DNA of 64,000 bases. It comes from Salinivirgaceae bacterium (GTDB lineage Bacteria > Bacteroidota > Bacteroidia > Bacteroidales > SZUA-534). The position numbers and the translations under genes are program-made. Where the stretch lies: contig JBFWMB010000008.1 in assembly GCA_050251815.1 (NCBI GenBank), positions 2,457 through 66,456 on the forward strand, written 5' to 3'. This document shows positions 5,544-14,912 of this stretch, one piece after another (the stretch's first letter is position 1; every line of letters starts with the position of its first letter). The notes beneath the pieces were generated by a model. It ran no database searches. It saw nothing but the letters and a program-made list of their open reading frames with translations, and was not told where the DNA came from.

Positions 5544-8285
5544 TTAGTTTAATTTATAGTTGAACAAGTATTGTTCGTCGCCACCCACAACCAGGTTAAA
5601 GCGCGCCGAACCCGGTTCTAAAACACCAATACTAAAACGGGTTTTACCCGGCAACGGAAATCCATCCATAAACTTACCCCGGGAGTTAAAAAGATAAATC
5701 TTTTGCGAACCTGTCTCGGTAATGCCAATGGCAGTTTGGCTGGCTGAGAATTGATAAAATGCCGGCTCGTGCATAATTTCAGTCGAAAAAGTATACTCAT
5801 ATTGCTTTTTGCCCGCAACAGTAAATACCGTCAGTTTATTTTTATCTACAAAGACAATATCTGCAATATTGTCGCCAGTAACATCTTCGAATTTAAAATA
5901 ATGTAACGGTGAAAAATCGGCAATGGGTTGCGATTCCACTTCGCCGTTAAAATAAATATAATAAAGTGTTCCGCCTTCGTCGGTTCGAATTAAACGCCCG
6001 CTGCGTGTGGCAGTCCCAGCCTGGTATTCGAACAAATTGTTACGCGAAGGATTGAACTGTTTGTTTAGTTTTATGCGGGGATTACCTCTGCGATCGAGTA
6101 TGTAAATACGCGAAACATCAGTTACCAAAAGATAATCCTTGTCTTTATCGCGAACATATTGCACGGGCGAAATAATCGGGTTATCGGCTCCTTTAAAATT
6201 AAACCCGGTTACTATTCGGCCCTCAATATCGTAACAATAAACCTGTTTATCAGCAGTGGGCACAAAAATCCGATAATTTTTCCGCTTATCGTAATCAAAA
6301 ATCGACAAGGCATTTACTGCTTTTGCAGGCAAATTAATCGGATAGCGCTCTACGAAATTTCCGTTCCGGTCGAGTAAATGAATCTGGCTTTCGGTATTAA
6401 ACAGGTATTGCAACTTACCATTTTTGTAATAATCAATCTGGGTAACTTCGCTTAAAATGGGCTCTTCCAATTTCTTTTTCCAAAGTATCCGGCCGGTTTT
6501 ATTGATTAAATAAACGGTATTTTTCATGTCCTGCACCAGAATCTCCTTCTCGTTGTTGTAATGATTAACTACCAGTTGTGGCTTAAAAGCTATGGTAGTG
6601 TCGAGCCGGGTTTCCCATTCAGTTGCCGCTTTTATTTTGTTCGAAGGTTGATGCCGGAACAAAAAATTATTGTAGTACATGTTATTTTCCGATGCAATTT
6701 GCCACGACACCGCATAAAAATCGCGCAGTATGGATTGATGCTTTTTAAAATAAGCAAAAGCATCGGGTGTCAAAAATTCATTCAGAAAACCGGTGCTTCC
6801 GGTTAAAGAAACAAAAGCATAAAAATTAACTTTATTCGACAAAAAATCGGAATACTGGTTGTAAGCTCCGTCGAAAGCCATGGTTTTTTGCAGTACATTA
6901 TTATATATAACCCGCGATAGGGTGTGAACCGATTCACCAAAAATCAGGAAATCATCGAAAGCAGTTACATACGTTGCCGAACAGGCTTTAAACCAGGGAC
7001 CAAACATACGTACCGGAAAATACGTGGTGGGAAACCGGTAAATCGGAAATTTGGTTTCGTTATCAATTTTGCATTCGTGAATAAGGCTTTGTTTCGAAAT
7101 TCCTTCCGTCCTGGCATAATGGGTAATCCATTTTTGTATCAACTCATTGGCATCGTGATATCCTTTGGTTCGGATATAAAACAAAGTTGATCCGTTGGCA
7201 TAATTTACCTGAGCCAGTTCATGGTCAAAAATAGCCAGCAAATCTTTTTCGTAGCTTGGCCCAAGCACAGCCACCAGTTGCTTTTGATTTATTTCGTGCC
7301 GTTCGCTTTGGTTTATGGCCGCCATATGCTTCTGCAACTGCTCCTCGAAACGGGCCAGGTTGCTAATACCAAAAGCAGCAAACGATTCAACTCCTGTAGG
7401 AACCCACTTTATAAATTTAAGGTTTTGCGGTTCCTGAGAATCCAGTAATGAATAGAAATGTGCCGGATTATTGGTGTTTTGTGTAAAGCCATTAATCAGC
7501 CAGGTTTGGTTTTTAAAATTCAAATCGAGCACGCTCCATTCGCCCATATGCTTAATTTCTCGCTCATTTAGAAATTCAGCAGCTATTAACTTGGTATAAA
7601 AGGCATCAAATCGATTAAAATTTACGTAGATGTTAGCATCGGCATGCTTTCCGGCTGTTTTTCGCAAGTTCTGAAGTCCGTTTTGACTACCCAAACCGGT
7701 ATCCACTTCAACCTGACGCAAAGCATCCTGCAATAGCAATTCCGATTCACTGGCCATAAGTATGCCCCGGTGGTATGCATAAAAAACGCTGGAACGCGAG
7801 TTTTTATAAGTATAAACTTTTACCTGGTTGTATTTGCCTTCCGATAAATTTGCGGTATTTAAAACCGAGGTATGTAGTTGTTTAAAAAACTGATTTGCCT
7901 CGAACCGTCCTGAAAGGTGAGTTATATAAAGCAGCTCAAACTGTTTGTTTCCCACCTCGTGTAACGACAAGCTTAGGGTATTATCGCGCCCGTCGCTCAG
8001 CAATTTTTCATTGGTTTTTAAAAGCGAATCAATAACCAGCATTTTTTTTGCCACTAGGGCCAGTTCAGGCAACTCCTGCAATTGATTAGCCAAACGATTG
8101 TCTTGCGAAACCTCCTGAAGAAAAAGTGCGGGATTATTTATTTCAGCAACCAAAGCGGCATTAACCGGAATGGCTGCAAAGGCATCAATTTTTGGACTTT
8201 GCTGTTTTTTAAGGTAAATATAAAACCCAACAATTACCGTTACAAAAACTACAATTACAATAATAAATCCAGGCTTTTTATTCAT
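5544..8285 (-). CDS. large conserved hypothetical protein, N-terminal TM anchor and C-terminal beta-propeller-like repeats
   Basis: 913-aa uninterrupted ORF with TM segment FIIVIVVFVTVIVGFYIYL. The C-terminal third has repeated blade-like segments (YLINKTGRILW, HLLDRNGNFV, YCYDIEGRIV, YILDRRGNP, YLFNSRGKFM). Confidence 0.75.
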   Translation of the reverse strand: MNKKPGFIIVIVVFVTVIVGFYIYLKKQQSPKIDAFAAIPVNAALVAEINNPALFLQEVSQDNRLANQLQELPELALVAKKMLVIDSLLKTNEKLLSDGRDNTLSLSLHEVGNKQFELLYITHLSGRFEANQFFKQLHTSVLNTANLSEGKYNQVKVYTYKNSRSSVFYAYHRGILMASESELLLQDALRQVEVDTGLGSQNGLQNLRKTAGKHADANIYVNFNRFDAFYTKLIAAEFLNEREIKHMGEWSVLDLNFKNQTWLINGFTQNTNNPAHFYSLLDSQEPQNLKFIKWVPTGVESFAAFGISNLARFEEQLQKHMAAINQSERHEINQKQLVAVLGPSYEKDLLAIFDHELAQVNYANGSTLFYIRTKGYHDANELIQKWITHYARTEGISKQSLIHECKIDNETKFPIYRFPTTYFPVRMFGPWFKACSATYVTAFDDFLIFGESVHTLSRVIYNNVLQKTMAFDGAYNQYSDFLSNKVNFYAFVSLTGSTGFLNEFLTPDAFAYFKKHQSILRDFYAVSWQIASENNMYYNNFLFRHQPSNKIKAATEWETRLDTTIAFKPQLVVNHYNNEKEILVQDMKNTVYLINKTGRILWKKKLEEPILSEVTQIDYYKNGKLQYLFNTESQIHLLDRNGNFVERYPINLPAKAVNALSIFDYDKRKNYRIFVPTADKQVYCYDIEGRIVTGFNFKGADNPIISPVQYVRDKDKDYLLVTDVSRIYILDRRGNPRIKLNKQFNPSRNNLFEYQAGTATRSGRLIRTDEGGTLYYIYFNGEVESQPIADFSPLHYFKFEDVTGDNIADIVFVDKNKLTVFTVAGKKQYEYTFSTEIMHEPAFYQFSASQTAIGITETGSQKIYLFNSRGKFMDGFPLPGKTRFSIGVLEPGSARFNLVVGGDEQYLFNYKLN

Positions 8286-8513
8286 GCTTTTTAAACGTTC
8301 AAATCTGCATCAAAAATATAAAAATTAAGGGAGCCCCCGGCAAAATAGCCGTTATAATGCTTATAATTTTTCTGTTAATCATTCCGTTTTTTAAACGGAT
8401 TCGGCCATCTGCTAAAATTAAACCTTTTTACATACCGAATAATTGCAGTATAATTAATCCTAAAAGCAAATAAACAATAATTAAATAAATTTTTTATAAG
8501 TCAACTATTCAGC

Positions 8514-8521
8514 TATTTTTG
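8514..8521 (+). promoter_or_regulatory. candidate Bacteroidota -7 promoter element (TAnnTTTG) for glyQS
   Basis: TATTTTTG lies 24 nt upstream of the glyQS ATG in an AT-rich intergenic region. Confidence 0.4.
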
Positions 8522-8544
8522 CGAGTTGATTAAAATAAATTTTT

Positions 8545-10098
8545 ATGGCTCAAGAAGATGTTTTCAAAAAAATAATTGCCCACTCAAAAGAGTACGGGTT
8601 TATTTTCCAATCGAGTGAATTATACGACGGATTAAGTGCTGTTTACGATTATGGTCAATACGGCTCAGAGCTCAAAAACAACATTAAAAAATACTGGTGG
8701 GATTCCATGGTAAAACTAAACGAAAACATTGTTGGGATTGATGCCGCCATTTTTATGCATCCTACCGTATGGAAAGCATCGGGCCACGTAGGAGCATTTA
8801 ACGATCCGCTTATCGATAACAAAGACTCAAAAAAGCGTTACCGTGCCGATGTGCTTATTGAAGAGCATCTTGAAAAAATTGAAGCCAAAATATCAAAAGA
8901 AATTGAAAAAGCTTCCGCTAAATTTGGGGCAGCCTTCGACGAAGCCCAATTCCGTGCAACCAATCAGCGGGTAATTGCCAACCAGGAAAAAATCGATCGC
9001 ATAAAAAAACGCTTTGTGTCGGCTCTTGAAACCGACAATTTAGCCGAAGTAAAACAACTTATCGAAGATTGCGAAATTGTTTGCCCCATTTCGGGGTCAA
9101 AAAACTGGACCGACGTACGCCAGTTTAACCTGATGTTCGAAACCAAACTGGGCTCGGTTAGCGAAGAGGCCAGCAGCATTTATCTGCGCCCGGAAACTGC
9201 CCAGGGAATTTTTGTTAACTACCTGAACGTTCAAAAAAGCGGGCGCATGAAAATTCCCTTTGGAATAGCCCAAATTGGAAAAGCGTTCCGTAACGAAATT
9301 GTTGCCCGCCAGTTTATTTTCCGCATGCGCGAATTTGAACAAATGGAGATGCAGTTCTTTGTGCGTCCGGGCGAAGAACTCGAGTGGTTTGCCAAATGGA
9401 AGGAAATACGTTTAAGATGGCACAAGGCCCTGGGCTTCGATACAAAAAAATACCGTCTCCACGATCACGACAAGCTGGCGCATTACGCCAACGCTGCTAC
9501 CGATATTGAGTTTGAATTCCCCATTGGTTTTAAAGAAGTGGAAGGAATTCATTCGCGTACCGATTTCGATTTGTCGCAACATCAGGAATACAGCGGCAAA
9601 AAAATCCAGTATTTCGATCCCGAACTAAATAAAAACTACATTCCTTACGTAATAGAAACTTCAATTGGTCTCGACCGCATGTTCCTGCTAATCCTGTCGA
9701 ATGCATACGACGAGGAAACCATTGAACAAGACGGTAAAACCGACACCCGTGTGGTGTTGCGCATTCCGCCAGAGTTGGCTCCGGTAAAGTTGGCCGTGCT
9801 TCCACTGCTTCGTAAAGACGGATTGCCCGAAAAAGCCCGGGAGATTCTCAACGATTTAAAGTTTGATGTAAATTGTATCTACGAAGAAAAAGACTCTATC
9901 GGCAAACGCTACCGTCGTCAGGATGCTATTGGAACCCCTTATTGCATTACCGTTGATCACGACACACTAACTGACCATAAAGTTACCCTGCGAGACCGCG
10001 ATACCATGCAACAAGAGCGGATTCCCATCGACAAGGTAAAAGAAATTGTAATAGGAAAAACAAGTATGACCAATTTATTGAAAAAAATTGAAGGATAA
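8545..10098 (+). CDS. glyQS: glycine--tRNA ligase (class II, dimeric type)
   Basis: 517-aa ORF. N-terminus KEYGFIFQSSELYDGLSAVYDYGQYG, YLRPETAQGIFVN and FRNEI..R.F.FRMREFEQMEMQFF are GlyRS signatures. Confidence 0.96.
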   Translation: MAQEDVFKKIIAHSKEYGFIFQSSELYDGLSAVYDYGQYGSELKNNIKKYWWDSMVKLNENIVGIDAAIFMHPTVWKASGHVGAFNDPLIDNKDSKKRYRADVLIEEHLEKIEAKISKEIEKASAKFGAAFDEAQFRATNQRVIANQEKIDRIKKRFVSALETDNLAEVKQLIEDCEIVCPISGSKNWTDVRQFNLMFETKLGSVSEEASSIYLRPETAQGIFVNYLNVQKSGRMKIPFGIAQIGKAFRNEIVARQFIFRMREFEQMEMQFFVRPGEELEWFAKWKEIRLRWHKALGFDTKKYRLHDHDKLAHYANAATDIEFEFPIGFKEVEGIHSRTDFDLSQHQEYSGKKIQYFDPELNKNYIPYVIETSIGLDRMFLLILSNAYDEETIEQDGKTDTRVVLRIPPELAPVKLAVLPLLRKDGLPEKAREILNDLKFDVNCIYEEKDSIGKRYRRQDAIGTPYCITVDHDTLTDHKVTLRDRDTMQQERIPIDKVKEIVIGKTSMTNLLKKIEG

Positions 10099-10195
10099 AT
10101 TAATTGCGAATAGAAGGAATTTATTGCTATGCGAATCGCATAATTTTCTATTTTTACATTTGTTAAAGAACAATACCAAAAAAACGCTCGAAATT

Positions 10196-12390: not shown

Positions 12391-12659
12391 TTCCTTAGGG
12401 TCAAACTTCAATCAATACGCCATATGATTACCTGGCTATCAGTACCAGCTCTTTTTCTAACCTGTTTGCCAAGGTGCAACTTTGAAATCGAACAGATGCA
12501 ATAACGAAATCCCTAAGGAGCAAAATCGAACCACTGTACTTTATAACGAAGGATAAACTCACCCTACGAAATCAGAAAATTTCCTCTCAGACACTTAACT
12601 TCCCTTAACTCCTTAATGGTTCAATAAAAACCACACCCCACATACAGTAACTTAAAGCC

Positions 12660-13185
12660 CGCTGATAACACCGGGGTTTCCGCTACATACACTGGCATTC
12701 CCGCTACATAAAATGGAGTTCCCGTTCCATTAAATGATGATTCCGCTACATACACTGGCATTCCCGCACTACTAAATGATGTTTCCGTTACTGACATTGG
12801 CATTTCCGCTACATTAAAGGGCATTCCCGCTACTGACATTGGCATTTCCGCTACATTCATCCAGATTCCCGCTCCTTAGATTGGCATTTCCGCTACATAT
12901 ATTGTGGATACCGCTACTTAAACCAGGGTTTCCGCTCTATAAATTGAGGCTCCCGCTTCAACCCTTTCAATTGGCAATGAATTCATTTGGGTTTGCGTTG
13001 AGTCACGTATTGTACGCATTGTATACAGCGTGGTTTGCGTTGAATTCATTTCCAGTTGTGCTACACGAATTGTTGTTTGCGCAGCATCTCGTGTAGTTTG
13101 CGCTATATTCCTTTCAATCTGCGCTGCCAGCCGAAGGGTTTGCGCTGCATTCCTGGCAATTTGCAGTACCGATTCCGGGTATTAA
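12660..13185. repeat. strictly phased 21-bp degenerate tandem array with two core flavours
   Basis: The CG of core TTYCCGCTAC lies at 12660 and then every 21 bp to 12954 (15 units). The CG of core TTTGCG(C/T)TG lies at 12996, 13038, 13080, 13101, 13122 and 13143, with TTTGCAG in phase at 13164. Every position is an exact multiple of 21 bp from 12660. Confidence 0.9.
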
Positions 13186-13200
13186 GTCATATACACCCAT

Positions 13201-13227
13201 AAAAAAAGGAGCCCGAAGGCTCCTTTT
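13201..13227. terminator. bidirectional intrinsic terminator downstream of the LTD/T9SS gene
   Basis: GGAGCC/GGCTCC stem (13208-13213 / 13218-13223) with loop CGAA, an A-run on the left and a T-run on the right. Confidence 0.7.
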
Positions 13228-13247
13228 ATATGATACGATAAAAGTGT

Positions 13248-14912
13248 TTATTGCTTAACTACTTTTACTGTTTTAGCGTTATTGTTTCCATCGGTGATGG
13301 TAACAAAGTATACTCCGCGGTTCAGGTTATCGGTAGAGATGTCTTTCGACTCCTGACCAGCAAGATTAACTTTCATTACTTCCTGACCCAAAATATTGCT
13401 TACGCGGATTTGTTTGGCATTAGCCAGACCATTCACGGTAATAACATTATTGAATGGGTTCGGGAATACAGCCACATTGCCAAATAGTTCTTCTTCAATT
13501 CCAACAGTAATTATGTCAGCCAAGCTACGTGGGAACAATTGATAAGTAGTGTTGTATTGTTGTCCGAATCCGGTTATTGACACAAATTCCTCGTCTAATA
13601 CTGCGGCATAATCTACAATCCCGTTGCGAATTACTAGGGTATTGCCATCAGCATCAGCTACAGTCCAGTTTTTACTACTTTCAGGAACAGTACAGGTTAC
13701 ATTCTCGATGGTAACCAATACCGCTTCATACATTTCACCATTCATCTGAGTAAGTGTTGCTACAGTAGCATCGGCCACAGTATTACCACTGTTAATTTTC
13801 ACAATGGTCGGTTCAATTAATTCAGTCAAACCGCTGTATTCATAAACCTTTGCTTCAATTGAAACTGAATCTCCGGTTGCTACAGTTGGTGTGGCATTCT
13901 CATATACATAAACACCATTCCAGGCACCAGCACCATCCTGCAGATAGAATCCTTTTGCATCCACGGTTACTACAACACCTTTTGTTCTGACAATTTCACC
14001 ATTGTATGGGCTGTCGCCTGAAGCATCAGCAGTTTCCTGAATTTGTTTAATGGTCAGCATTTCAGGTTCAGCAGCTTGCAATACATAAACAGTCCAAAGT
14101 TTTTCTGTTGCGTCAGCAGCAGTTACTCTATATATAACAGGGTCAACTCCGTTGAATACTACAGGCAAAGTAGTAGCAGTAACCTGAGCACCAGCAGAAA
14201 CGGTAATGGTTGGTTCCAAAGAACCTAAATCAGCATCCCAGGCAACAGTTGAAGTTACCATGGCATTTTCAGAACTGATAATGGCAGTACTAATTTCTTC
14301 GGCTAATACAAAACCTAAAATCTCAGCTTCGTTTGAAGGAGGAGTTATGTGCCATCCTAAATAGGAAAAATCATCCTGATTATAAACTTCCCATTCTGAA
14401 CTTGCAGCATCAGTTCCTGAAGCAGCAGTCCAATCAACATTACCTTGGGTAACAGCAGATTTTCTTACCAGAGTATGATTTTGTGTTGCCCCGGTAGTTC
14501 CGGCAACATCCCAGGCAGAACCTGGATCTACAGTTGGATTTCCAATGATGTCAATCAACGCGTCGCTTTTAAACAAACCTAATGCGTCGTCTCCATTGAA
14601 AAAGGTAACATTGCTTTCGATATCACCAACGGCAGCAACGGCAGCAACAGACTGAGAGTTGTAAATAACATAAACATCACCTGCGGCAAGTGTTCCGGTA
14701 AGATCAAGGGTATTTCCCCAATCGGCTCCATTTGATGCAAGTTTTACAACATAAGGTGTTAAATCAACATCAGCACTGGTTGGATTATAAATCTCTATTG
14801 CCTTGTTGTTACTGCCCCCCTCGATATATTCCGAGAAGAATAAGTCTTGTGCCCAGGCTCCCTGTGCAAACAAGAGCGCAAACACGTAAAAAATCAATGT
14901 AATTTTTCTCAT
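13248..14912 (-). CDS. T9SS-secreted protein: lamin-tail domain plus ExeM/NucH-like OB region plus type-A sorting domain, no nuclease domain
   Basis: 554 aa with a signal peptide. DLFFSEYIEGGSNNKAIEIYNPT matches the LTD N-terminus of ExeM/NucH nucleases. IKQIQ...GFYLQDGAGAWNGVYVYE...VYEYSGLTEL matches their OB-like region. C-terminus FPNPFNNVITV...GVYFVTITDGNNNAKTVKVVKQ is a Por_Secre_tail. Confidence 0.8.
   Translation of the reverse strand: MRKITLIFYVFALLFAQGAWAQDLFFSEYIEGGSNNKAIEIYNPTSADVDLTPYVVKLASNGADWGNTLDLTGTLAAGDVYVIYNSQSVAAVAAVGDIESNVTFFNGDDALGLFKSDALIDIIGNPTVDPGSAWDVAGTTGATQNHTLVRKSAVTQGNVDWTAASGTDAASSEWEVYNQDDFSYLGWHITPPSNEAEILGFVLAEEISTAIISSENAMVTSTVAWDADLGSLEPTITVSAGAQVTATTLPVVFNGVDPVIYRVTAADATEKLWTVYVLQAAEPEMLTIKQIQETADASGDSPYNGEIVRTKGVVVTVDAKGFYLQDGAGAWNGVYVYENATPTVATGDSVSIEAKVYEYSGLTELIEPTIVKINSGNTVADATVATLTQMNGEMYEAVLVTIENVTCTVPESSKNWTVADADGNTLVIRNGIVDYAAVLDEEFVSITGFGQQYNTTYQLFPRSLADIITVGIEEELFGNVAVFPNPFNNVITVNGLANAKQIRVSNILGQEVMKVNLAGQESKDISTDNLNRGVYFVTITDGNNNAKTVKVVKQ

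What the first reader, a model, noticed from the sequence alone, without database searches (positions are those of the whole stretch)
12660..13185. 504-bp non-coding array holding an exact 21-bp phase over 24 periods, with a switch of core motif
About 860 bp without a credible ORF lies between the convergent zupT (ends 12390) and the LTD/T9SS gene (ends 13248). Inside it a ~10-nt core recurs with no phase slippage. The CG of TTYCCGCTAC sits at 12660, 12681, 12702, 12723, 12744, 12765, 12786, 12807, 12828, 12849, 12870, 12891, 12912, 12933 and 12954. The array then changes to a second core, TTTGCG(C/T)TG, with its CG at 12996, 13038 and 13080 (42-bp steps) and at 13101, 13122 and 13143, plus TTTGCAG at 13164. 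From 12660 to 13164 is exactly 24 x 21 bp. The ~11-nt spacers between cores differ heavily by substitution, yet no indel has accumulated, which argues for selection on spacing rather than recent duplication alone. Twenty-one bp is two helical turns, so every core faces the same side of the DNA. That geometry resembles plasmid iterons or centromere-like partition sites, or a cooperative nucleoprotein landing pad with two adjacent specificities. Two alternatives remain. It could be a decayed heptad-repeat (7-codon) gene. Or a minus-strand transcript (GUAGCGGRAAUGCC every 21 nt) could act as an RNA-binding-protein sponge. I know of no described element with this organisation.
Basis: partly seen in the sequence, partly recalled or inferred. 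Interest (0 to 1): 0.8.

Follow-up and report, generated by a model that had tools for sequence, protein, structure and literature searches.

The report
Phase-locked 21-bp non-coding repeat array
Between two convergent genes of an uncultured Salinivirgaceae bacterium lies a non-coding run of about 24 repeats, each exactly 21 bp, whose short CG-centred core and spacing are kept in four related lineages while the rest of each repeat drifts; this points to a site where many copies of one protein dock on one face of the DNA, but that protein is unknown.

Summary
From 12656 to 13180 the sequence holds one 21-bp register (lag-21 identity 0.53 vs 0.26 in shuffles, z 14), with 42/63-bp higher-order units.

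The same array sits at the same place (LTD gene / zupT) in three other genus-level lineages, with 19-33 units. It is absent from relatives whose ZupT is only 79-85% identical. In those three lineages a CG occupies unit columns 4-5 in 73 of 74 units; the common core is TTYSCGCT.

All array indels are whole units (21, 63, 84, 105 bp), whereas the flanking leader carries 1- and 3-bp indels. Between species the core columns change less than the rest (7.7% vs 19.6%, p = 0.004).

Coding is rejected. Substitutions show no codon phase. The would-be Ala codon is GCG in 23/24 units, though GCG makes up 9% of Ala codons. Stops differ between lineages, and no homologs were found.

It is not an origin, plasmid, phage, CRISPR, Rfam RNA or demonstrable MITE.

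Best reading (about 0.4): a one-face, cooperative protein landing pad on DNA. A transcribed RNA platform and a largely neutral minisatellite remain live rivals.

The parts
12391..12445 (+). Poorly conserved spacer just after the zupT stop. It holds a weak hairpin followed, after 12445, by a T-run (CTGG..CCAG CTCTTTTTCT, about 12432-12458) that may be a leaky zupT terminator.
   Evidence: Identity to L196 is 0.76 here, close to 4-fold-degenerate sites, so it serves as an internal near-neutral reference. Sequence read; alignment.
12446..12655 (.). Conserved, non-repetitive 'leader'. The best-kept blocks are ACCTGTTTGCC, GAAATCGAAC and ACTTAACTTCCCTTAACTCCTTAATGGTTCAATAAAA.
   Evidence: 0.89-0.92 identical between lineages. 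It carries 1-bp and 3-bp indels, a 46-bp deletion (L196), a deletion of about 100 bp (L202) and an insertion of about 190 bp (L194). No fold signal on either strand (z -0.16 and +0.33).
12656..12970 (+). Part A: 15 units of 21 bp with core TTYCCGCTAC, all in direct orientation, and a 42/63-bp higher-order structure.
   Evidence: Unit columns 1, 3, 4 and 5 are invariant in 14/14 units. Copy number is 4 units in L202, about 12 in L194 and about 19 in L196.
12705..12767 (.). A 63-bp block (3 units) present in the window and L001 but absent from L003 and L004. Its placement is ambiguous within a 19-nt repeated flank.
   Evidence: L002 (GCA_964559525.1) has a contig end at the same point, so an assembly artefact cannot be fully excluded.
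12971..13180 (+). Part B: 10 units of 21 bp in the same register with core TTTGCGCT. Each unit is distinct, and this is the best conserved part between lineages.
   Evidence: Identity between lineages is 0.92-0.95. L196 and L202 carry 5 further in-phase units at the right end.
12918..13160 (-). 'ORF-Q' (xxRxAAQ heptads ending ..TLV*). It is open in all lineages and starts with ATG in L194, L196 and L202 but with ATT in the window. Judged not to be a gene.
   Evidence: Substitutions by codon position are 2/8/8. pS is 0.10-0.14, far below the flanking genes, and pN/pS is similar in all six frames. No homologs in an exhaustive HMMER search beyond two marginal hits at E 4e-4 and 7e-4.
12621..12860 (-). 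79-aa ORF (MNVAEMPMSVAGMP...) that gene callers predict inside part A. Judged spurious.
   Evidence: The frame is broken by stops at different places in each lineage. No Pfam hit above threshold and no homologs.
13204..13227 (.). Bidirectional intrinsic-terminator hairpin (AAAAGGAGCC / GGCTCCTTTT). It is followed by a 7-T run when read on the minus strand (terminating the LTD gene) and by TTTT on the plus strand.
   Evidence: I4, 10-nt arms, 100% complementary. Conserved in all lineages.

Best explanation
The array is a non-coding, cis-acting DNA element. It holds 19-33 directly repeated copies of an 8-bp CG-centred core (TTYSCGCT), with weaker positions about one helical turn further on (A10 T11 .. 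A14 . T16 G17). Copies are spaced exactly 21 bp apart, which is two turns of B-DNA, so every core faces the same side of the helix. I infer that many copies of one sequence-specific DNA-binding protein, or two close paralogs reading C or G at column 3, load cooperatively along that face and form a long, coherently bent nucleoprotein filament. Such a filament could act as a titration (decoy) site, an anchoring or centromere-like site, or a roadblock between the convergent zupT and LTD transcription units. Shown: the repeat, its phase, conservation of core and phase across lineages, whole-unit gain and loss, and the absence of coding. Inferred: that the constraint acts on DNA rather than RNA, that a protein binds, and what the filament does.
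For: (1) Strict 21-bp register over 24 units here and over 22, 33 and 19 units in L194, L196 and L202. (2) CG at unit columns 4-5 in 22/22, 32/33 and 19/19 units of the relatives. Pairwise identity among units is 0.92-1.00 at column 4 and 0.78-1.00 at column 5, and it averages 0.34-0.41 over columns 8-20. Core and spacer of a unit share one genealogy, so this contrast reflects constraint. (3) Between lineages the five best core columns show 8 changes in 104 sites against 63 in 322 elsewhere (Fisher p = 0.004). (4) Array indels are only 21, 63, 84 or 105 bp, while the adjoining 286 bp of non-repeat DNA has 1-, 1- and 3-bp indels; at that rate about 5 small indels would be expected in the array. 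(5) Array identity between lineages is 0.85-0.95, like the short promoter-bearing intergenic regions of the locus (0.91-0.98) and unlike 4-fold-degenerate sites (0.65-0.76). (6) All cores share one orientation: CCGC occurs at 24.8 per kb on the + strand and GCGG at 0. (7) 21.0 bp is two helical turns; a wedge-model path puts the 504-bp array at the 0.4th percentile of the window for end-to-end/contour ratio (0.354 vs median 0.834; parameters recalled from memory, so approximate). (8) Coding explanations fail. (9) Established analogues exist for cooperative binding to phased direct repeats, for example the six 12-mers bound cooperatively by RctB in Vibrio cholerae oriCII (PMC4551981).
Against: No candidate binding protein was found. 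Genes within about 8 kb to the left (down to about 3.98 kb in the window) and about 8-9 kb to the right are zupT, two unknowns that are also present in array-less relatives, glyS, a beta-propeller protein, MntP, a deaminase, LTD, queA, truB, bacA, a DUF3098 gene, ftsX and, in L194, part of infB; there is no rep, par or regulator gene. No second site with the motif at 21-bp spacing occurs in the other 63 kb of the window. The element exists in one genus-level clade only, and part A shrinks to 4 units in L202, so most of it is dispensable. Any exact 21-bp repeat will be predicted to be curved, so point 7 is not independent evidence. Spacers are also fairly well conserved between lineages, which a pure 'core plus free spacer' model does not predict. 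Recombination among these lineages is evident (the hyp147 gene is identical at 4-fold sites between L194 and L196) and could lower apparent divergence. The data cannot separate DNA-level from RNA-level constraint.
Confidence: 0.4

Rival explanations
1. A largely neutral intergenic minisatellite. A 21-bp unit arose at a rearrangement junction, grew by slippage or unequal recombination (which only adds or removes whole units) and is slowly decaying. Phase constancy reflects the mechanism, not selection.
For: Copy number varies: there is a 63-bp polymorphism within the species, and part A has 4 to 19 units between lineages. A higher-order 42/63-bp structure is typical of arrays that grow by duplication. 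The element is confined to one young clade and absent where zupT abuts queA directly (L200) or where an LTD homolog has a different downstream neighbour (L201). A metagenome scan shows that 21-bp arrays with the same 10-mer are not rare, and by my estimate they are compatible with chance. No function-linked neighbour was found.
Against: A near-invariant CG and core amid randomised spacers within the same units. Slower between-lineage change at core columns (p = 0.004). No small indel in more than 500 bp although the adjoining DNA has them. Conservation well above 4-fold sites and above the 55 bp next to zupT. The arrays are stable within lineages: five assemblies of the L196 type are identical or differ by 3 SNPs, and four of the L202 type are identical.
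Confidence: 0.25
2. The constraint acts on RNA. The array is transcribed, either as a long zupT 3'UTR on the + strand ending at the shared terminator, or as read-through from the LTD gene on the - strand. The repeated motif (UUYSCGCU, or AGCGSRAA with GGA on the minus strand) recruits or titrates an RNA-binding protein.
For: The element is bounded by a weak hairpin with T-run after zupT and by a strong bidirectional terminator, the layout of a transcription unit. Part B with the terminator folds better than shuffles on the + strand (z -4.25). The minus strand of part A is far less structured than its shuffles (z +5.1, all 200 shuffles fold better), as expected for a single-stranded binding platform. 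Spacers are conserved as well as cores.
Against: No TAnnTTTG-type Bacteroidota promoter on either strand in the window, L194 or L196; L202 alone has one unconserved match per strand. No Rfam family here or in the orthologous loci. RNAalifold finds 0 compensatory pairs among 63 predicted pairs, and several helices are broken in relatives. A 21-nt spacing has no natural meaning for RNA, whereas it equals two DNA turns. Direct-repeat arrays are expected to look unstructured relative to shuffles.
Confidence: 0.2
3. A decayed or living heptad-repeat protein gene on the minus strand (MPxxVA[EG] / xxRxAAQ repeats). At minimum, the part-B ORF-Q of 73-118 aa would encode a small protein.
For: The minus frame has only 2 stops in 187 codons. 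ORF-Q is open in all four lineages, with a conserved stop and an ATG in three of them, and gene callers predict ORFs here. pN/pS is about 0.35-0.65 for comparisons involving the window and up to about 1.1 between the other lineages.
Against: Substitutions by codon position are 2/8/8, against identities of 0.96/0.99/0.76 at positions 1/2/3 in zupT. pN and pS are about the same in all six frames, and pS (0.10-0.14) is 2.5-3 times lower than at 4-fold sites of the flanking genes. The would-be Ala codon is GCG in 23/24 units, though GCG is the rarest Ala codon in the window's genes (9%). Third positions of the core codons are more conserved than whole spacer codons. Part A has stops at different places in each lineage. 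The window has no start codon for ORF-Q. No homolog was found in 5.8 billion clustered proteins, and the exhaustive HMMER search of 1.84 billion representatives gave only two marginal hits. No Pfam hit above threshold.
Confidence: 0.07
4. A BrickBuilt-like mobile element: a MITE that carries an internal minisatellite between a leader and a tail, inserted between zupT and the LTD gene.
For: The architecture is leader + tandem array + tail, always intergenic, in a member of Bacteroidales, as for the 23-nt BrickBuilt element of Porphyromonas gingivalis (PMC4596501). It is absent from the corresponding site in related genera. L194 has an insertion of about 190 bp in the leader flanked by a duplication of about 55 bp.
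Against: No terminal inverted repeats at the ends. No second copy in the other 63 kb of the window or in about 60 kb of related loci. The unit is 21 nt, not 23 nt, and shares no sequence with plasmid or phage records. BrickBuilt arrays tolerate 0-6% indels, whereas this one has none.
Confidence: 0.08

Closest known systems
Iteron arrays bound cooperatively by replication initiators (R6K, P1 incA, RK2; Vibrio cholerae oriCII 12-mers bound by RctB)
   Same: Short direct repeats in one orientation, with a conserved core and variable flanks, held in a fixed phase. RctB binds the six-12-mer array cooperatively, and changes in site spacing impair function (PMC4551981). That iterons are 17-22 bp long with roughly two-turn spacing is from my own knowledge.
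   Different: There is no initiator gene, AT-rich unwinding element or DnaA-box cluster next to the array. The context is chromosomal housekeeping genes with a flat GC skew. The array has 19-33 units instead of 3-9, and it lies downstream of two convergent genes.
Centromere-like partition sites made of tandem direct repeats (parC of R1 and pSK41, sopC of F, tubC)
   Same: Many in-phase direct repeats that a small DNA-binding adaptor coats to form a curved or superhelical filament (my own knowledge). The array here is predicted to be coherently curved.
   Different: No parA, parM, tubZ or adaptor gene within about 8 kb on either side. The element is not on a plasmid or phage. Unit length and sequence are unrelated.
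BrickBuilt minisatellite-MITE of Porphyromonas gingivalis (PMC4596501)
   Same: A Bacteroidales, strictly intergenic element with a leader, a tandem array of about 1-23 short units having conserved and non-conserved positions, and a tail. Gene callers wrongly predict ORFs in it.
   Different: BrickBuilt has 23-nt units, up to 6% indels, terminal inverted repeats and 19 copies per genome. Here the units are 21 nt with no phase-breaking indel, no TIR was found and only one copy was seen.
Bacterial VNTR / minisatellite loci
   Same: Head-to-tail repeats, whole-unit copy-number differences between strains and species, and a higher-order repeat structure.
   Different: Units are old and diverged (about 40% identity outside the core), yet core and phase are retained and the arrays are stable within lineages.

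Membership tests
Plasmid/chromid iteron origin | Direct repeats of 17-22 bp in phase at about two helical turns | tested here: met
   Exact 21-bp register over 24 units.
Plasmid/chromid iteron origin | Adjacent gene for the iteron-binding initiator (Rep) | tested here: not met
   Neighbours within about 8 kb on either side are housekeeping, transport or unknown genes that array-less relatives also carry.
Plasmid/chromid iteron origin | AT-rich unwinding region and DnaA boxes; a replication origin signature | tested here: not met
   One chance near-match to a DnaA box in the array; 22 matches in the window against 17.6 expected. GC skew is uniformly negative with no switch.
Centromere-like partition site | Tandem in-phase direct repeats | tested here: met
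Centromere-like partition site | Linked partition NTPase and adaptor genes | tested here: not met
   None in the window from about 3.98 kb to about 18.8 kb, nor in L194 out to about 7 kb beyond the array on the LTD side and about 4 kb on the zupT side. The rest of the genome was not searchable.
Centromere-like partition site | Specific cooperative binding of the adaptor | not testable with these tools
   Needs EMSA, DAP-seq or ChIP.
BrickBuilt-type MITE with internal minisatellite | Leader and tail flanking a tandem array, intergenic | tested here: met
   Leader 12446-12655, array, short tail plus terminator.
BrickBuilt-type MITE with internal minisatellite | Terminal inverted repeats | tested here: not met
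   No inverted repeat joins the two ends.
BrickBuilt-type MITE with internal minisatellite | Multiple dispersed copies per genome | tested here: inconclusive
   No second copy in 63 kb of the window or in the related loci. BrickBuilt density is about 1 per 120 kb, and whole genomes could not be scanned.
Neutral VNTR/minisatellite | Copy-number polymorphism by whole units | tested here: met
   A 63-bp difference within the species; 21-, 84- and 105-bp differences between lineages.
Neutral VNTR/minisatellite | No sequence constraint: all unit positions decay alike | tested here: not met
   Pairwise identity among units is 0.92-1.00 at column 4 and 0.78-1.00 at column 5, against 0.34-0.41 for columns 8-20. 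Core columns change less between lineages (p = 0.004).
Heptad-repeat protein gene or its relic | ORF across the repeats, intact in at least some relatives | tested here: not met
   Part A is broken by different stops in every lineage. Only the 73-118-aa part-B ORF is open, and it lacks a start codon in the window.
Heptad-repeat protein gene or its relic | Codon-phase substitution pattern and protein homologs | tested here: not met
   Substitutions by position are 2/8/8. All frames look alike. GCG in 23/24 units against 9% usage. No homologs beyond two marginal hits.
CRISPR array | Repeats of 23-47 nt separated by unique spacers of similar length; cas genes | tested here: not met
   The whole period is 21 bp, the spacers are related to one another (42/63-bp higher order), and there are no cas genes nearby.
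Protein-titrating sRNA (CsrB/RsmZ-like) | Own promoter and terminator; repeated motif presented single-stranded; cognate RNA-binding protein | tested here: inconclusive
   A terminator is present, no conserved promoter motif and no Rfam hit. The minus strand of part A is unstructured. Transcription and the binding protein are not testable here.

The most novel reading that the evidence does not exclude
A chromosomal, genus-specific nucleoprotein landing pad of unusual length for bacteria. It would consist of 19-33 one-face, two-turn-phased copies of a CG-centred 8-bp core, coated cooperatively by a still unidentified DNA-binding protein. It would act as a decoy, anchor or barrier element between convergent genes and evolve by whole-unit gain and loss under selection for phase.
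Probability: 0.35. Interest if true: 0.7.

Novelty: new variant of a known kind. Interest (0 to 1): 0.45.

Why it matters
Long phase-locked arrays of short direct repeats are known in bacteria mainly from plasmid origins and centromeres, where the binding protein is encoded next door. Here the same geometry sits in a housekeeping region of a chromosome, with comparative evidence for constraint on core and phase but no partner gene. If a protein coats it, the array would be a natural example of a chromosomal decoy, anchor or roadblock, and a ready-made bait for finding a new DNA-binding specificity in Bacteroidota. If it proves to be neutral, it is still a useful calibration case. It shows how far slippage alone can preserve phase, and that gene callers routinely invent 70-110-aa 'proteins' in such arrays.

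Tried and rejected
- **Protein homology:** the minus-frame pseudo-translation gave nothing in the word-indexed search. ORF-Q gave only two marginal hits in the exhaustive HMMER search. Pfam gave only a sub-threshold PXPV match. Exact look-up of six called array ORFs showed none is in the protein collection, which limits what could find.
- **Genome-contig scan with ZupT:** only relatives at <=69% identity came back, none with an array.
- **Metagenome scan for two cores 21 bp apart:** 99 stretches, about 20 of them true 21-bp arrays with unrelated spacers. I first read this as a family, then rejected that: the search itself imposes the core, and my rough estimate of about a million 21-bp arrays in the collection predicts on the order of 100 chance hits. 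The best spacer matches (8/11 in L135, L188 and L189) are within multiple-testing expectation.
- **Viral contigs:** 10 hits, mostly coding repeats.
- **Plasmid and phage BLAST:** no match.
- **Rfam:** nothing.
- **Origin or terminus idea:** flat GC skew, no DnaA-box cluster.
- **MITE idea:** no TIR, no second copy.
- **Promoter search (TAnnTTTG):** nothing conserved; the sigma-70-type scan found nothing relevant.
- **RNA structure:** z -4.25 for part B on the + strand, but no covariation, and helices are broken in relatives.
- **CpG-methylation idea:** prompted by the CG->TG/CA losses in the window. There is no genome-wide CpG depletion (observed/expected 1.12), so it is left as speculation.
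- **7-bp sub-period:** none at lag 7; the period-7 Fourier peak is only a harmonic.

Full report
**1. The observation**

The region 12391-13247 lies between the stop of zupT (+ strand, 12390) and the stop of a lamin-tail-domain / T9SS-sorted protein gene (- strand, 13248).

- Lag-21 identity is 0.534 against 0.256 +/- 0.019 in shuffles (z 14.4). Part A (12677-12970) gives z 13.4 and part B (12971-13185) z 6.7.
- No other part of the 64-kb window shows this periodicity.
- Lags 42 and 63 are as strong or stronger, and TRF reports periods 21, 42 and 63. The array therefore has a higher-order structure.
- All cores point the same way.

**2. Relatives**

The exact ZupT protein is found on contigs of near-identical strains. 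L001 equals the window. L003 and L004 lack one clean 63-bp block, which is three units.

The LTD protein places the organism in Salinivirgaceae. It led to syntenic loci (queA-LTD-array-zupT) in two further lineages: L194 (GCA_050179685.1) and L196. A ZupT search added a fourth, L202-L205 (HGW-Bacteroidetes-4, GCA_002840905.1).

Relatives whose ZupT is 79-85% identical have no array: zupT is followed within 18-96 bp by other genes, and in L200 directly by queA. A more distant queA-LTD locus (L201) has a SAM riboswitch downstream instead. The element is therefore confined to one genus-level clade.

**3. Anatomy across lineages**

In register, the arrays have 24-25 units (window), 22 (L194), 33 (L196) and 19 (L202).

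- Part A ranges from 4 units (L202) to about 19 (L196). Part B has 10 units, plus 5 more in L196 and L202.
- Orthologous units can be matched one to one, and all length differences inside the array are 21, 63, 84 or 105 bp.
- In the relatives a CG occupies unit columns 4-5 in 22/22, 32/33 and 19/19 units.
- The consensus is T0 T1 Y2 S3 C4 G5 C6 T7, with weaker A10 T11, A14, T16 G17 and R20.
- The 'switch of core' is essentially C versus G at column 3.
- The window lineage has lost the CG in four part-B units, always by CG->CA or CG->TG.
- Within lineages the array is stable. Five L196-type assemblies are identical or differ by 3 SNPs, and four L202-type assemblies are identical.

**4. Is it constrained?**

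- Four-fold-degenerate sites of zupT, hyp147, queA and the LTD gene are 0.65-0.76 identical between the window and L194 or L196. The leader is 0.89-0.92, part A 0.85-0.91 and part B 0.92 identical. The 55 bp next to zupT are 0.76 identical to L196.
- Short intergenic regions elsewhere in the locus are 0.91-0.98 identical. The array therefore behaves like functional intergenic DNA, not like neutral DNA. The caveat is that these lineages recombine: hyp147 is identical at 4-fold sites between L194 and L196.
- Within arrays, pairwise identity among units is 0.92-1.00 at column 4 and 0.78-1.00 at column 5, against 0.34-0.41 for columns 8-20.
- Between lineages, the five best core columns changed at 8 of 104 sites against 63 of 322 elsewhere (p = 0.004). 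For columns 0-7 the figures are 12% against 19.6% (p = 0.046).
- The 286 bp of non-repeat DNA to the left carry 1-, 1- and 3-bp indels plus larger ones. The array of more than 500 bp carries none that breaks phase.

Core and phase are therefore under selection. This is my inference from these counts.

**5. Not a gene**

- The minus frame with MPxxVA[EG] / xxRxAAQ heptads has few stops. In part A, however, the stops fall at different places in each lineage.
- The part-B ORF (73-118 aa, conserved stop) has an ATG in three lineages but ATT in the window.
- Its substitutions fall 2/8/8 on codon positions 1/2/3. For comparison, identities in zupT are 0.96/0.99/0.76 at those positions.
- pN and pS look alike in all six frames, and pS (0.10-0.14) is far below that of the flanking genes.
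- The would-be Ala codon is GCG in 23 of 24 units, although GCG supplies only 9% of Ala codons in the window's genes.
- No homolog exists in either protein search beyond two marginal hits, and nothing passes threshold in Pfam.

**6. Other identities tested and rejected**

- Rfam gives nothing.
- There is no plasmid or phage similarity.
- GC skew is flat and there is no DnaA-box cluster.
- No rep, par or regulator genes lie nearby.
- There are no terminal inverted repeats and no second copy.
- No conserved TAnnTTTG promoter is present on either strand.
- A metagenome scan for two cores 21 bp apart returned about 20 unrelated 21-bp arrays. Because the search imposes the core, and such arrays are numerous, I do not take this as a family.

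**7. DNA or RNA?**

Part B with the terminator folds better than shuffles on the + strand (z -4.25). RNAalifold, however, finds no compensatory change, and some helices break in relatives. The minus strand of part A is much less structured than its shuffles (z +5.1). That fits a single-stranded platform, but it is also expected of any direct-repeat array.

The 21.0-bp period equals two turns of B-DNA, and a wedge model predicts coherent curvature: end-to-end/contour ratio 0.354, the 0.4th percentile of the window (the parameters were recalled from memory). I therefore favour a DNA-level, one-face cooperative protein landing pad (confidence about 0.4). The rivals are an RNA platform (0.2), a mostly neutral minisatellite (0.25), a BrickBuilt-like mobile element (0.08) and a gene or gene relic (0.07).

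**8. Comparison with known systems and verdict**

The geometry matches iteron and centromere arrays, for example the cooperative, spacing-sensitive RctB 12-mer array (PMC4551981). The defining partner genes and replicon context are absent, so it is not a member of those families.

The closest described Bacteroidales element is the BrickBuilt minisatellite-MITE (PMC4596501). BrickBuilt differs in unit length, indel tolerance, terminal inverted repeats and copy number.

I class the array as a new variant of a known kind. It is real, conserved and non-coding, and its function is unproven.

Noticed in passing
L175 6551-6781: An 11-unit 21-bp array (TTTCCGCTACCTTTTCGGAAA, each unit with a TTTCCG/CGGAAA inverted repeat) lies about 210 bp upstream of a 1064-aa Cas9-like ORF (6995-10189) on a GC-rich metagenome contig. 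L086 carries a related array.
   Followed up: no
L171 (reverse-complement coordinates 1341-1634); also L146 and L163 2546-2713: AT-rich 21-bp arrays (TTTCCGCTACCTTAATATTTT) at one locus in related strains. In L163 the array follows a 485-aa ORF that looks to me like a DNA methyltransferase (no domain search was run). L171 has a second unit family (TTTCTCTAGCGTTAGAATTAA) in the same phase, another 'core switch' without phase slip.
   Followed up: partly
L135 2354-2459: Just downstream of ftsZ in a GC-richer bacterial contig (ftsA-ftsZ locus; taxon not checked), an array with unit TTCCCGCTACTGTGATTGCCA is 18/21 identical to the window unit at 12824. The contig ends inside the array. The spacer match (8/11) is within chance after multiple testing.
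   Followed up: partly
L189 5209-5292, L183, L118: A 4-unit 21-bp array (GGGGTTTCCGCTACGTAAACC...) on a marine viral contig and on TARA contigs. It looks like a phage iteron set; one unit is 17/21 identical to the window unit at 12908.
   Followed up: no
L194 about 7650-7835 (window-oriented intergenic positions about 390-575): An insertion of about 190 bp inside the leader, flanked by a direct duplication of about 55 bp of the leader's 3' end (..GGACACTTAACT[TC]CCCTTAACTACTTAATGGTTCAATAAAAGACAA).
   Followed up: no
L194 9065-9508 vs L196 4561-4965: The 147-aa hypothetical gene upstream of zupT is identical at all 4-fold sites between L194 and L196, while zupT (0.85) and the LTD gene (0.76) next to it are not. 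This indicates recent recombination among these lineages.
   Followed up: partly
window 13248-14912 (-): The window's LTD/T9SS protein (554 aa) is 110-150 aa shorter than its orthologs (667-705 aa), which carry an extra DUF5018-type segment. It is only 66-76% identical to the L194 and L196 orthologs, whereas ZupT next door is 97% identical.
   Followed up: no
L201 5179-5295: A SAM riboswitch (RF00162, 69.6 bits) sits upstream of a Cys/Met-metabolism PLP enzyme gene in the array-less relative. This is ordinary.
   Followed up: yes
window 12976, 13018, 13059, 13165: All four losses of the core CG in the window lineage are CG->CA or CG->TG transitions, the pattern expected from deamination of a methylated cytosine. 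The window shows no general CpG depletion (observed/expected 1.12).
   Followed up: partly
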